This document shows positions 6,001-9,000 of a stretch of 32,282 bases of DNA, piece by piece. A program made the position numbers. Where the stretch lies: assembly GCA_044220955.1 (NCBI GenBank), contig JBGAQA010000082.1, positions 1-32,282 on the forward strand. Direction: 5' to 3'. Source of the stretch: Sandaracinaceae bacterium. Lineage in GTDB: Bacteria; Myxococcota_A; Polyangia; Polyangiales; Sandaracinaceae. Within the stretch, counting starts at the first letter, position 1; every line of letters starts with the position of its first letter.

Positions 6001-9000
6001 GCGCACGAGGTCGGCGCTCCAGAAGAACTCGCCGTGGAAGAGCGCGCTGCGCGGGTTCCGGCTCCCGTGGAAGGGCAGCTGGATGTGCAGCACGTCCACG
6101 CCGAGCTCGTCGTGCAGGCGGGGCAAGAGGAGCGCCTCCTCGATGCCGGGCCCGGGCTCGAGCCAGCCGTGCACGTAGATCAGCGCGCGCTTGCGGGGCC
6201 CCGAGCGCGGGTGGATCCAGCGCGCCGTCACGCGCTGGTTCAGCCAGTACTCCCCGGCGTGGCGCGCGCGGTAGTGCGGGCAGAGCACGACGTGCTGGCT
6301 GTGCCAGCGCAGCGTCTCGATGACGCGCGGCCCGAGCGCGAGGCGCGGCTTCTTGCGCACGACGTCGCGCGGGACGACCGGCGTCGGGAAGAGCGTCTCG
6401 ATCGGAGCGTCGAGATAGGGCCCGAGGTCGTCCACGGTGTTGACGTGGGCGCCACGGAGCCCGTGCAGGAGGTGGGAGCCGGCGCCCACGACGCGATCGA
6501 CCGCTTCGCCGAAGGAGAGCATGCGGCTCGTTGTATCACCGAGGACGATCCGTGCGCGTCCGGACCGTCGAGCGCGCTGGGCGAGGGCGAGATCGAGGGC
6601 GAGATCGAAGGCGAGATCGAGATCGAGAGCGAGAGCGAGAGCGAGAGCGAGGGCGAGGGCGAGGGCGAGGGCGAGGCGAGGGCGAGGGCGAGGGCGAGGG
6701 CGAGGGCGAGGGCGAGGGCGAGGGCGAGGGGCGAGCTCCGAGGTCGCATCGGGGTGGGCGCTCTGCTCGGGGGTCCTCATCGTGCCCGCGGGCTTGTCGC
6801 GTTCAACCCCGCGCCTGCGGCGCGCCGGTGCTCGCTTCCTCCGGCTCCGCATTCGCGGAGCCTCCGTGCAGCTCCGCTCCGGAGCGACTGCATTCGCAGT
6901 CGCTGGGTTGAGCGCGCCTGCGACCCGCGGGCGGGAAGGGCTGTGCCCCGAGCAGGTCGGGGCACCAGCCAGGAGAAGCTCCGTGTTGAACATCTATCTC
7001 GTCTCGATTCAGCTCTGCCGCGATGTCCGGGTGATCGGTGAGCACGTCGGGCGCCACGACCGGAACCTGCTCGACCAGCTGCGGCGGGCGGTGACCAGCG
7101 TGCCGCTCAACCTCGCGGAGAGCGACGGCGTGCAGGGCGGCAACCGTCGGCAGCGGCGGCTGACGGCGCTCGGCTCAGCCAAGGAAGTTGGCGCGTGTCT
7201 CGACGTGGCGGAGGCGCTCGGGTACGCGGCGGTGGATCGGACCGTCCGAGAGCGACTGGACCACGTCATCGGCGTGCTCGTGAAGCTGACGCGCTGAGAG
7301 ATCACCGAGGCCCGCGGCGACAATCACGGGCCTCGGCCCTGCCTACACGAGCTTGTGCAGCGTCCGCGCGATCCGATCGAGCGCGTCGACCTGCCTCGCG
7401 TCCGCGCTCACGTATCCCATCGCGTCCGCGGTCTCGAGGATGGCGCGGACCTCGTTCGCGCTCCCCATCGCGGTCTCGAACCTCGCGCGCGCGTTCCCGT
7501 TCCGCCGCCACTCCCCTTCCGCGATGTTGAGCGGCACGCTGGTCAGCGCCCGCCGCAGCTGCTTGCCGAGGTCTGCGTCGTGCTGCGCGATCTTGGTGAC
7601 GACGTCGCGCATCTCTCGCGTGATCTGGAGTGCGTCCTTGTAGATGTGCAGGCCCATGTTCCGTTCTCCGTTCTGCCCGCTCGGGGCACAGCCCCACCTC
7701 CGTCGCGCGCAGCGGCAGTCCACCCTCGGTCCGCGGAGGCGGACCGACGCGAGCGGAGCACCCCGGAGCCACGGCGAGACGTACTTCTCGCCATTCCGGT
7801 GCCCTGGCGAGGAGTGCGAGCACGCGCGCTTCGCGCAGCGAAGCGGGGTGGACGGCCGCGAGCACGACGGCACCATTCTCCAACCCCGAGCGGGCCACCG
7901 GATTTCTCGTCCTCATTCGAGCGGCGAGTCCGGCCGAAGGCCGGAGAGCCCGAGAGAGAGCGAGGTCGAGAGCGAGGTCGAGAGCGAGGTCGAGAGCGAG
8001 GTCGAGAGCGAGGTCGAGAGCGAGGTCGAGAGCGAGGTCGAGAGCGAGGTCGAGAGCGAGGTCGAGGTCGAGGTCGAGGTCGAGGCGAGCGCGGAGCCCC
8101 TCAGTGCACCACGTGCTCGTGCACGCTCGCGCCGCCCTCGACGGCCGTGCCGTAGATGTCCGCGAAGCGGAGCGAGCCCGGGCTCTCGCCGAGCGTGAGG
8201 TGCACGTGATCGAGGTACGCGTCGGTCCCCGCGATCGTCAGCGTCGCGCGCGCGGTACAGCCGTGCGGCGCGCGCGCCGTGTGCACCTCCAGGTGTCGCG
8301 ACGAGAGCGCGCGGATCTGGATCAGCATGGTCATGCCGTCCTCTCGCGTCTCGGTGACGCGCTGCGAGCCGACGCCGTATACCGGCCCCTCGAACATGTT
8401 GAGGCCGTGCGTGACGCGGCCGTCCGCGCCGTTCTCGAACTCGCGCCAGTACACCTCCATCGGCGAGCCGCTCGCGGGGTGACAGCTGGTGTCGAGGTGG
8501 ATGCCGTAGTCGACGCGGTTGCGGTCGTCGCTCTTGTCGATGAAGAAGATCGTCGGCACGTCGTGCCGCTCGAACTGCACGTCGGCGCGCGCGATGCCCA
8601 CGACGCCGAGCACGACGAGCGCGATCGTCGTAGCGCGCCTCATGGCCGGGTCACCTCGGGCGGTCGGGACCCGTCCAGCGTGCACTCTTCGAAGGCCTCG
8701 CACTCGTCGAGGTTCTCGCCGTAGGGCCCGCCGTCGCAGGGGTGCTCGACCATCGCGAGGCGGCAGGCGACCATCTCGCCGAGCGAGATCGTGCACGGCA
8801 GGCTGCGGGCCGCGGCGGACCAGGCGTCCGGGACGCAGTGGTGCTCGACCACCGCGGCCGTCGACCCATCGGGGCAGCTCGCCGTCGAGCCTTCGAGGTG
8901 CACGTTCCGGTCGAGATACGGACAGAGCGAGACGAAGTCGTCCGGCGTGAGAGCGGCGACCGGCGTCGCCCAGGGCTGCGGCGGCGCCGGGAGCGGGCCG

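What a model noticed while it worked through the whole genome (the two positions that open the first line are those of the whole stretch)
6560..8080. Structured ~220-nt RNA leader family in front of four-helix-bundle (PF05635) genes, in convergent twin-gene repeat units [...]
Four-helix-bundle genes (23S_rRNA_IVP/PF05635, the family of the DGR protein Avd) of this genome are preceded by a conserved ~220-nt RNA element with a long closing helix and nested stems supported by compensatory changes; it matches no Rfam family. Of 13 such genes, 9 have the whole leader, 3 are cut by contig ends (one keeps the 3' part of the leader) and 1 (g00894) keeps only its last ~30 nt. The usual unit is a convergent pair of two diverged 104-aa genes (type B > < type A, 45% identical, 45 bp apart with a shared hairpin), each with its own leader, bracketed by hexanucleotide microsatellites. 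Leaders: C282:6760-6973+, C282:7655-7896-, C247:45463-45691+, C247:46361-46619-, C159:134-351+ [...]
Evidence so far: Alignment of 9 own copies: 46 predicted pairs, 18 with compensatory change. Covariance model R1 finds 9 copies here and copies in 7 of 12 other Sandaracinaceae genomes but 0 of 8 genomes of other Polyangiales families. On 23 sequences: 91.5% of cells paired against 41-45% when partners are slid, 36 of 46 pairs with changes on both sides, 0 of 500 shuffles reach it. cmscan of 4 loci against Rfam 15 at E<=1: only 4 chance-level miRNA/sRNA rows. Several relatives' copies sit upstream of PF05635-like ORFs and downstream of hexamer arrays. Gene pair identity.
(Added by a program. 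Inside this text positions count along the whole contig: contig position 1 is position 1 of the stretch shown here. "Call 12" and the like, gene names such as g00115 and contig names such as C1 are that model's own, and its searches are not shown. The text may have been shortened before it was handed on; [...] marks where a part breaks off. The agent that wrote the report below was given it as the finding of a first reader that could run no searches.)

Follow-up and report, generated by a model that had tools for sequence, protein, structure and literature searches.

The report
Structured RNA leader of Avd-like genes
A roughly 200-base, strongly folded RNA element sits in front of small Avd-like four-helix-bundle genes carried in repeat-bounded cassettes of one order of myxobacteria; it is real, undescribed as far as I could find, and probably the RNA that the encoded protein binds.

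Summary
Gene B (6983-7297 +) and gene A (7657-7343 -) are PF05635/TIGR02436 proteins. Each follows a ~200-nt element: a long closing helix, a four-way junction and three conserved 2x3 internal loops. My own covariance models find it upstream of PF05635 genes in 66 of 73 matches. On 69 distinct copies 94.8% of cells pair, against 30-46% with slid partners, and 56 of 58 pairs change on both sides. G-U outnumbers A-C 134 to 12, which favours the sense strand. Rfam has no match.

- The family is not confined to one family of bacteria. It occurs in five families of the order.
- It marks one protein clade only.
- (CGAGNN)n arrays are genome-wide, 176 in all.
- Single cassettes in relatives carry inverted arrays, like the array-bounded 'IVS-like' PF05635 cassettes this scan noted before on other DNA.

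The best reading, inferred and not shown, is an RNA operator or partner bound by its own oligomeric Avd-like protein. Expression could not be tested. Interest 0.65.

The parts
6579..6735 (.). Left hexamer array, (GGGCGA)n, which is the (CGAGNN)n type read on the + strand
   Evidence: TRF gives period 6 and 26 copies. It is one of 176 such arrays in the genome.
6757..6959 (+). Leader B, whole element. The outer helix P1a pairs about 6764-6778 with about 6945-6957. The model core is 6783-6933.
   Evidence: Fold z-score -4.6. R1 scores 41.6 bits (E 4e-6) and R2 73.2 bits.
6794..6921 (+). Internal loops of leader B: loop 1 is 6794-6795 with 6919-6921; loop 2 is 6832-6833 with 6873-6875; loop 3 is 6841-6842 with 6863-6865. 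Hairpin P2 is 6810-6824 and hairpin P4 is 6883-6904.
   Evidence: Mapping of the R2 alignment onto the window. Loop letters are conserved across 69 distinct copies.
6936..6968 (+). Type-B-only local hairpin (GUGCCCCGA...UCGGGGCAC). It competes with the 3' strand of P1a.
   Evidence: The minimum-energy fold of 6740-6990 forms it in place of P1a. The trimmed fold forms P1a instead.
6971..6975 (+). Shine-Dalgarno AGGAG of gene B
   Evidence: Read from the sequence. GGAG-type sites lie 5-10 nt before the start codon in the 38 copies examined.
6983..7297 (+). Gene B: 104-aa PF05635 four-helix-bundle protein
   Evidence: dN/dS is 0.15-0.22 against its paralogues.
7305..7336 (.). Hairpin shared by the two convergent genes
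   Evidence: Stem of 10-13 bp on either strand, z -2.4 and -3.2. Also present after the genes on C5 and C10.
7343..7657 (-). Gene A: 104-aa PF05635 four-helix-bundle protein
   Evidence: AF2 model with pLDDT 94.8. Foldseek matches 2RLD (TM 0.84), 2GSC (0.78) and Avd 4DWL (0.69).
7673..7899 (-). Leader A, whole element. The outer helix P1a pairs about 7882-7895 with about 7676-7689. The model core is 7698-7872.
   Evidence: Fold z-score -4.0. R1 scores 63.5 bits and R2 80.7 bits. Coordinates.
7709..7861 (-). Internal loops of leader A: loop 1 is UC 7860-7861 with UGC 7709-7711; loop 2 is UC 7818-7819 with UCC 7755-7757; loop 3 is UC 7809-7810 with UCC 7765-7767. Hairpin P2 is 7827-7845 and hairpin P4 is 7726-7747.
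   Evidence: Conservation shown.
7928..7947 (-). Small UUCG-capped hairpin (CUCCGGCCUUCGGCCGGAC) between the array and leader A
   Evidence: Read from the sequence. The same or an equivalent hairpin stands before A-type leaders on C10, C36, C159, C5 and C247.
7956..8093 (.). Right array, (GAGAGCGAGGTC)n. It has the same polarity on the + strand as the left array.
   Evidence: TRF gives period 12 and 11.6 copies. Both arrays are scored '+'.

Best explanation
WHAT IT IS. The element is a sense-strand structured RNA forming the 5' untranslated region of one clade of Avd-like (PF05635) genes. Its parts are:
- an outer helix P1a;
- a long helix P1b;
- a four-way junction with two short UNCG-capped hairpins (P2, P4) and a long arm P3;
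- three copies of one internal loop, 5'-UC-3' opposite 5'-U(C/G)C-3'. Each is flanked by G-C pairs and a conserved U-G wobble.
The base of the structure ends about 20 nt before the start codon, just upstream of the Shine-Dalgarno site.

MOST LIKELY MECHANISM (inferred, not shown). The encoded four-helix-bundle protein, presumably a pentameric barrel like its solved relatives, binds this RNA through the three repeated loops. In the DGR particle, Avd holds an RNA stem-loop by flipped-out bases in the same way. The outcome would be feedback control of its own translation, or a stable protein-RNA particle.

SETTING. The gene and its leader travel in small cassettes bounded by hexamer arrays. The window's convergent twin is two such cassettes joined tail to tail.
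For: SHOWN, STRUCTURE.
- 94.8% of 3349 cells pair, against 30-46% when partners are slid.
- 56 of 58 pairs change on both sides, and 0 of 500 shuffles reach this (smaller sets).
- P1a lies outside the model. It shows compensating variants between genera: CUCGGGG/CCCCGAG, UUCGCGGG/CCCGCGAA, UUCCGGGC/GCCCGGAA and UUCGCGCG/CGCGCGA.

SHOWN, STRAND.
- G-U/U-G fill 134 cells against 12 for A-C/C-A.
- Reverse-strand scores are far lower.

SHOWN, LINKAGE.
- 66 of 73 matches have a PF05635 gene downstream on the same strand, at a median of 40.5 nt.
- 4 are cut by contig ends and 3 have no gene.

SHOWN, CONSTRAINT.
- Loop letters are kept while the helices vary. For example, loop 1 has U 60/66 and C 61/66 opposite U 64/67, G 55 or C 12, and C 65/67.
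- Leader divergence (0.04-0.19) is below the synonymous divergence of the adjacent gene (0.21-0.41) in the 6 close-paralogue pairs with both values.
- The proteins are under purifying selection, with dN/dS 0.14-0.22.
- All 43 leader-linked proteins form one clade (100/100), apart from the leaderless PF05635 proteins of the same genomes.

BASIS OF THE INFERENCE.
- The protein folds like Xcc0516 (2GSC), BT_0352 (2RLD) and Avd (4DWL, 8UB7).
[quoted passage not shown] Flipped-out bases sit in the crevices between protomers (passages of bioRxiv 10.1101/2023.10.23.563531).
Against: - There is no binding or expression data of any kind.
- The Avd analogy rests on about 10% sequence identity, and here there is no reverse transcriptase partner.
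- Oligomeric state was not tested.
- The proteins' calculated pI (mostly 9-10) is no different from that of the leaderless clade.
- Genes persist without the leader: L062, and C40 in this genome. The RNA is therefore not strictly needed for the gene to survive.
- Predicted pairing of the ribosome-binding site shows no consistent pattern.
- The alignments behind the main counts were fitted to the model, which favours the structure.
Confidence: 0.4

Rival explanations
1. Processing and stability element. The cassette has no promoter of its own. The long GC-rich helices are cut by RNase III, or block 5' decay, so that a stable gene-sized mRNA is released from host read-through transcripts, bounded by the leader and the 3' hairpin. 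This is how rRNA intervening sequences are excised.
For: - The simple scan found no sigma-70-like promoter in 6400-8200.
- Arrays often start at the stop codon of a co-directional upstream gene.
- The helices exceed 30 bp, and a GC-rich hairpin follows each gene.
- Single cassettes in relatives have inverted arrays that could form a very long stem around leader plus gene.
- The Coxiella IVS is excised by RNase III (abstract of PMC4990558).
Against: - A plain cleavage or stability stem does not need three conserved internal loops, conserved U-G wobbles and a four-way junction.
- Upstream genes were co-directional in only 12 of 19 callable cases out of 34 examined. Gene B in the window has a divergent upstream neighbour.
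- Leaderless cassettes of the same genomes manage without it.
Confidence: 0.25
2. DNA-level structure. The element folds in single-stranded DNA, or extrudes as a cruciform, and serves the duplication or movement of the cassette, as attC sites or folded phage attachment sites do. It would not act as RNA.
For: - Cassettes are multi-copy, with near-identical copies at different loci. Four G004 proteins differ by branch lengths of about 0.009, G119 has up to 14 matches, and G123 holds matches with equal scores.
- The cassettes always abut tandem arrays.
- No transposase lies inside.
- Conserved bulged bases are what attC recognition uses (recalled knowledge, not tested here).
Against: - Fixed sense orientation and fixed distance to the start codon in 66 of 73 matches point to the transcript.
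- A cruciform would fold both strands, yet G-U exceeds A-C 134 to 12.
- No intact free-standing leader copies spread on their own. The three gene-less matches are an intron-disrupted gene, a tandem duplicate and one copy followed by an array.
- In this genome, spread can be explained by recombination between the abundant arrays.
Confidence: 0.12
3. Riboswitch-like sensor. The leader binds a small molecule or ion, or senses temperature, and switches translation of the gene.
For: - It is a 5' untranslated-region element next to the ribosome-binding site.
- Type-B copies have a local hairpin that competes with P1a.
Against: - The junction has no conserved unpaired core. The only conserved unpaired letters are one small loop repeated three times.
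- There is no terminator and no consistent sequestering of the Shine-Dalgarno site.
- The competing hairpin is confined to the B lineage.
- The downstream gene is not an enzyme or a transporter.
Confidence: 0.08

Closest known systems
ORF-bearing intervening sequences of 23S rRNA (Coxiella burnetii IVS with its S23p ORF; Warrier et al. 2016, PMC4990558, abstract and outline read)
   Same: - The protein family is the same (PF05635).
- It is a small selfish-looking unit with a single gene.
- Single cassettes in relatives are enclosed by complementary ends: inverted hexamer arrays in L029 and L036, and a 48-nt inverted repeat in L047.
   Different: - It is not in rRNA. The window's unit lies between protein genes, and there is no rRNA match.
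- The window's twin has direct, not inverted, arrays.
- A ~200-nt conserved structured element between the 5' repeat and the gene is not a described part of an IVS.
Avd and its binding stem-loop in DGR RNA (Bordetella phage BPP-1; PDB 4DWL, 8UB7; bioRxiv 10.1101/2023.10.23.563531, passages read)
   Same: - A four-helix-bundle protein of the same fold (TM 0.69, probability 1.0).
- The RNA partner is a helix with extruded bases and a UNCG cap, encoded next to the protein gene.
   Different: - No reverse transcriptase lies on the contig. The 4 RVT_1 genes of the genome are elsewhere.
- No template or variable repeat was looked for.
- The RNA lies upstream of the gene, not downstream.
- Sequence identity to Avd is about 10%.
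- Binding is not shown here.
Autoregulatory leaders of ribosomal-protein operons (general class; recalled knowledge)
   Same: This is what it would work like: a structured 5' leader abutting the ribosome-binding site and bound by the protein it precedes.
   Different: - The protein is not ribosomal ('S23 ribosomal protein' is a misnomer).
- No similarity to rRNA or to any Rfam leader was found.
- The element sits on a multi-copy cassette.
Array-bounded 'IVS-like' PF05635 cassettes noted earlier by this scan in other phyla (AI notes, unpublished)
   Same: A PF05635 gene lies between inverted arrays of short tandem units. Here the units are hexamers, there mostly heptamers.
   Different: None of the notes shown mentions a structured element between array and gene, and a word search for one returned nothing. 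Here the leader is the distinguishing feature of one protein clade.

Membership tests
PF05635 / TIGR02436 four-helix-bundle proteins (genes A and B) | Profile score above the curated cut-off | tested here: met
   PF05635 scores 44.9 and 61.0 bits against a cut-off of 33.8. TIGR02436 scores 47.2 and 58.4 bits against 24.
PF05635 / TIGR02436 four-helix-bundle proteins (genes A and B) | Four-helix-bundle fold like the solved members | tested here: met
   The AF2 model has pLDDT 94.8. Foldseek gives 2RLD TM 0.84, 2GSC 0.78 and 4DWL 0.69, all with probability 1.0. By sequence, 2GSC matches at E 5e-6.
PF05635 / TIGR02436 four-helix-bundle proteins (genes A and B) | Pentameric barrel assembly | not tested
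   Inferred only from the five chains of 2GSC, 2RLD and 4DWL listed, and from the passages.
Diversity-generating retroelement (Avd as accessory protein) | Adjacent DGR-type reverse transcriptase | tested here: not met
   RVT_1 matches in the genome lie on C290, C263, C167 and C111. None is on C282 or on any PF05635 contig.
Diversity-generating retroelement (Avd as accessory protein) | Template and variable repeat pair | not tested
   No search for TR/VR pairs was run.
23S rRNA intervening sequence | Inserted in helix 25 or 45 of a 23S rRNA gene | tested here: not met
   No rRNA match in 6000-8600 at E up to 10. The neighbours are protein-coding ORFs.
23S rRNA intervening sequence | Complementary ends enclosing the ORF | tested here: inconclusive
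   Not met in the window, where both arrays have the same polarity. Met in single cassettes of relatives (L029, L036, L047).
23S rRNA intervening sequence | Excision by RNase III | not testable with these tools
   This needs an in vitro cleavage assay or end mapping.
Any Rfam 15 family | Match at or near the gathering score | tested here: not met
   The window region and 7 loci with leaders gave only rows far below gathering score, lying outside or only marginally on the leaders. The one true hit is a group II intron in L040.
Riboswitch or cis-regulatory sensor | Expression platform: terminator or Shine-Dalgarno sequestering helix | tested here: inconclusive
   No terminator-like site. Shine-Dalgarno pairing probability averages 0.65 with no common pattern in 38 copies. 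A competing hairpin exists in the B lineage only.
Protein-binding autoregulatory leader (works-like class) | Lies in the 5' UTR next to the ribosome-binding site of the gene for the binding protein | tested here: met
   66 of 73 matches lie upstream on the sense strand, with the core ending a median of 40.5 nt before the start codon.
Protein-binding autoregulatory leader (works-like class) | Bound by the encoded protein | not testable with these tools
   This needs a gel-shift, filter-binding or pull-down assay.

The most novel reading that the evidence does not exclude
The leader is the cognate RNA of a reverse-transcriptase-less Avd-like pentamer. The pyrimidines of its three evenly built loops dock into the crevices between protomers, as flipped-out bases do in the DGR particle. 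The mismatched positions of paired hexamer arrays may dock in the same way. This self-encoded protein-RNA particle would be the working core of a widespread class of array-bounded selfish cassettes that includes the ORF-bearing rRNA intervening sequences. That would give the large orphan family PF05635 its first function outside DGRs.
Probability: 0.25. Interest if true: 0.85.

Novelty: new variant of a known kind. Interest (0 to 1): 0.65.

Why it matters
PF05635 is a very common bacterial protein family. Its only understood member is Avd of diversity-generating retroelements. The free-standing and rRNA-borne members have had no function for decades.

A conserved, covarying RNA with three repeated loop modules, physically tied to one clade of these genes, gives a concrete and cheap test: does the protein bind it, and what happens to translation or RNA stability? 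Such a test could show whether RNA binding is the family's general activity.

The element also adds an unusually well-supported new structured RNA class. Its 58 pairs, 56 of them covarying, come from a poorly sampled, very GC-rich lineage. And it links this RNA to the repeat-bounded cassette architecture that this scan keeps finding around PF05635 genes.

Tried and rejected
- RNA EVIDENCE. For 6400-8200, no RNA holder was listed.
- FULL-LENGTH MODELS. The models therefore cover only the 143-151-position core, and P1a was judged separately.
- P1a ENERGY CONTROL. Cognate flanks average -39.5 kcal/mol and non-cognate flanks -34.3, a modest gap because the helix is partly sequence-conserved.
- RNAalifold ON MAFFT ALIGNMENTS. 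P1 and parts of P3 came out, but not P2-P4, because hairpins of different length were misaligned.
- EMPTY-SITE COMPARISON. The only orthologue of the left flanking gene in the genus (G020) has different downstream content. No empty or filled site could be compared.
- READ-THROUGH TEST. A crude GC3-based gene call placed 12 upstream genes co-directional and 7 divergent. In 15 of the 34 cases no gene was called, so nothing can be concluded.
- RBS SEQUESTRATION. No consistent pattern.
- PROMOTER AND TERMINATOR SCAN. Nothing found. The scan covers only sigma-70 consensus sites and U-tract terminators.
- ARRAYS AS CASSETTE MARKERS. Rejected for this genome. Of 170 merged arrays only 15 form neighbour pairs within 3 kb, and the other pairs examined flank ordinary unique sequence.
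- HIT OUTSIDE THE ORDER. G188 scores 46.8-47.9 bits but has no PF05635 gene beside it. I do not count it.
- LITERATURE. Five full-text searches and a term search inside PMC5737381 found no description of an RNA motif tied to PF05635 genes. The supplements of that paper, where its motifs are listed, were not opened.
- NOT RUN.
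Full report
WHAT IS THERE. The window (contig C282 of draft genome G000) holds two convergent 104-aa genes. 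B runs 6983-7297 (+) and A runs 7657-7343 (-).
- Both pass the curated cut-offs of PF05635 and TIGR02436.
- They are 44.6% identical.
- The 45 bp between them form a 10-13 bp hairpin.
- Each gene is preceded by a GC-rich stretch that folds far better than shuffles, with z -4.6 and -4.0.
- The pair is flanked by tandem hexamer arrays at 6579-6735 and 7956-8093.
My tools show only coded families (f1, f18 and so on).

COPIES IN THIS GENOME. tblastn finds about 20 copies or fragments on 14 contigs, many at contig ends.
- Nine leaders are whole.
- Two are cut by contig ends.
- C36_B is cut after 34 nt.
- C40 keeps only the last ~30 nt.
- C241 joins leader nt 1-72 to codon 35.
- The 'single' gene on C5 still carries the last ~30 nt of a B gene in antisense before its downstream array.
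The singles here are therefore decayed twins.

ARCHITECTURE. All copies fold alike:
- an outer helix P1a of 13-15 bp;
- a loop;
- a long helix P1b;
- a four-way junction without unpaired letters, carrying a short hairpin P2, a long arm P3 and a short hairpin P4.
One small internal loop recurs three times, once in P1b and twice in P3. It is 5'-UC opposite 5'-U(C/G)C, set between G-C pairs and next to a conserved U-G wobble.

IS THE STRUCTURE REAL? A structure-blind MAFFT alignment of 11 copies already gave 17 of 35 predicted pairs with compensatory change.

I therefore built a 151-position core model, R1, from three near-identical A-type copies and their common minimum-energy fold. R1 found all 11 own copies, including the B types it had never seen, at E 7e-7 to 3e-4.

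Pair counts on successively larger alignments:
- 11 own copies: 94.7% of cells paired against 34-49% slid, and 36 of 59 pairs changed on both sides.
- 37 copies from several genera: 95.0% against 31-48%, and 54 of 59.
- 73 matches (69 distinct) with the broader model R2: 94.8% against 30-46%, and 56 of 58.
No shuffle out of 500 reached the observed values in any set.

These alignments are fitted to the model, which favours the structure. The slid-partner control and the blind alignment speak against an artefact. P1a lies outside the models, but it shows clear compensating variants between genera.

STRAND. G-U/U-G pairs fill 134 cells and A-C/C-A only 12. Several U-G pairs are themselves conserved, for example 57 of 67 at one position. 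Reverse-strand scores are much lower. The folded strand is therefore the sense strand of the gene.

LINKAGE AND CONSTRAINT.
- Of 73 matches, 66 have a PF05635 gene downstream on the same strand. The core ends a median of 40.5 nt (range 11-94) before the start codon.
- Four more are cut by contig ends.
- The remaining three are a gene broken by a group II intron (L040), a tandem duplicate of a leader (L091) and one copy followed by an array (L099).
- Loop letters are kept in about 90% or more of copies for loops 1 and 2, and in 60-98% for loop 3, while the helices around them vary.
- Between close paralogues the leaders differ less (0.04-0.19) than the synonymous sites of their genes (0.21-0.41).
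- The genes are under purifying selection, with dN/dS 0.14-0.22.

DISTRIBUTION. Only 20-96 candidates per genome are scored in these searches, so all counts below are minima.
- R1 found the element in 9 of 31 other genomes of the family, in 5 of 12 genera.
- The broader R2 found it in 21 of 150 other genomes of the order: f1 10/22, f18 6/23, f11 2/9, f9 2/23, f7 1/10, f17 0/23, and none in the other families sampled.
- The hits outside f1 sit directly upstream of PF05635 genes in 4 of 4 and in 13 of 14 loci examined.
- In a phylum-wide sample, 1 of about 126 genomes outside the order matched (G188). It has no such gene beside it, so I do not count it.

WHICH GENES HAVE IT. In three genomes of the family, 23 of the 30 PF05635 loci fetched have the element upstream (E up to 0.005). 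Thirty of 32 matches were fetched.

I built a tree of 47 proteins. It includes only those found by tblastn with A or B at E up to 1e-8, with at least 90 aligned residues and 90-130 aa. L044, L067 and L073 fell out by this filter. The tree puts all 43 leader-linked proteins in one clade (100/100). The four 'canonical' proteins are set apart by a branch of 2.38. Inside the leader clade, L062 has lost the leader secondarily. A-like and B-like lineages each include members from other genera and families, so their split is old.

CASSETTE CONTEXT. Earlier notes of this scan report PF05635 genes in many phyla enclosed by inverted arrays of short repeats, called 'IVS-like cassettes'. I checked this lead here.
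- In relatives the usual unit is a single cassette: 5' array, ~60-nt spacer, leader, gene, hairpin, then the inverted array. Examples are (GCGTGA)n with (TCACGC)n in L029, and (GCGTCN)n with (NGACGC)n in L036.
- Leaderless cassettes in the same genomes put the gene straight into such a stem. L047 has a 48-nt inverted repeat beside a tRNA gene.
- In the window both arrays have the same polarity.
- The direct arrays fit two cassettes joined tail to tail, each keeping only its 5' array. Convergent twins recur in other families (L095, L096, L100), and L095 still has an array between its two genes.
- In G000 the (CGAGNN)n arrays number 176 and are mostly solitary. They are a genome-wide feature that the units sit in, not a mark of the units.

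HOW IT PROBABLY WORKS. The protein model (pLDDT 94.8) matches the pentamer-forming structures 2RLD, 2GSC and Avd. In the DGR particle all five Avd protomers hold an 11-bp, UNCG-capped RNA stem by flipped-out bases that sit between protomers (passages read).

The leader offers the kind of surface that analogy calls for: three copies of one conserved pyrimidine loop on long helices. It also has UNCG-type caps on P2 and P4, and a position abutting the ribosome-binding site. I therefore favour an operator or partner RNA bound by its own protein (confidence 0.4). Every step beyond 'conserved sense-strand structure next to the gene' is inference.

The rivals are:
- a processing or stability element for a promoter-less cassette (0.25);
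- a single-stranded-DNA structure used in cassette spread (0.12);
- a ligand or temperature sensor (0.08).
Expression could not be examined.

NOVELTY. Rfam 15 has no matching family. Five literature searches and one in-paper term search found no description; supplements were not opened. I class the element as a new variant of a known kind: a structured, gene-linked leader RNA on an IVS-like cassette. It has unusually strong comparative support, and it gives a direct experimental handle on an orphan protein family.

Noticed in passing
window 96-232 and 25673-25929; genome-wide: G000 holds 176 (CGAGNN)n hexamer arrays: 97 on the + strand, 79 on the - strand, and 34 touching contig ends. Most are solitary and not next to PF05635 genes. 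The free dinucleotide is mostly AG, GG or GT. Several arrays start at or within a few bases of the stop codon of the upstream gene (seen on C5, C247, C10, C241 and C105).
   Followed up: partly
L036:1130-1438 and 2126-2395; L029:1240-1433 and 2103-2469: In relatives the flanking arrays are inverted. They keep five fixed positions and one freely varying position, (GCGTCN)n against (NGACGC)n. If paired they would form 5-bp helices broken by regular 1x1 mismatches, over 190-360 bp.
   Followed up: no
L040:1186-1487 (G021:C320): A PF05635 gene with an intact leader is interrupted after codon 5 by a group II intron (RF02005, 135 bits, E 7e-39).
   Followed up: yes
L002, within 2006-2196 (-), i.e. 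the C247 A-type leader: Hairpin P4 of this copy carries a ~40-nt insertion of lower GC content that forms its own near-perfect hairpin (…AGGCCTATAGCCAGTTGGCTATAGGCC…). The rest of the leader is unchanged.
   Followed up: no
window 6936-6968 (+): B-lineage leaders carry a second copy of the P1a 5' strand just after the P1a 3' strand. This gives a local hairpin that excludes P1a. It is also seen in L027, L040, L021 and L018, but not in A-type copies.
   Followed up: partly
L091:1306-1433 and 1501-1628 (G123): Two leader copies stand in tandem 195 nt apart before one PF05635 gene. G119 has up to 14 matches and G123 has several matches with identical scores, which suggests recent multiplication.
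   Followed up: no
L047:1390-1440 and 1860-1905 (G027): A leaderless PF05635 gene of the other protein clade sits in the loop of a ~48-nt near-perfect inverted repeat, directly beside a tRNA gene.
   Followed up: partly
L095:126-1748 (G101, another family): A convergent twin of PF05635 genes has hexamer arrays on both sides and a third array, (CGGGCA)12, between the two genes.
   Followed up: partly
L078:1501-1632 (-) (G188, another order): This stretch matches both RNA models at 47-48 bits and carries the GUGCUCGC / GCUCCG repeats, but no PF05635 gene is nearby. It may be a relic or a chance match.
   Followed up: partly
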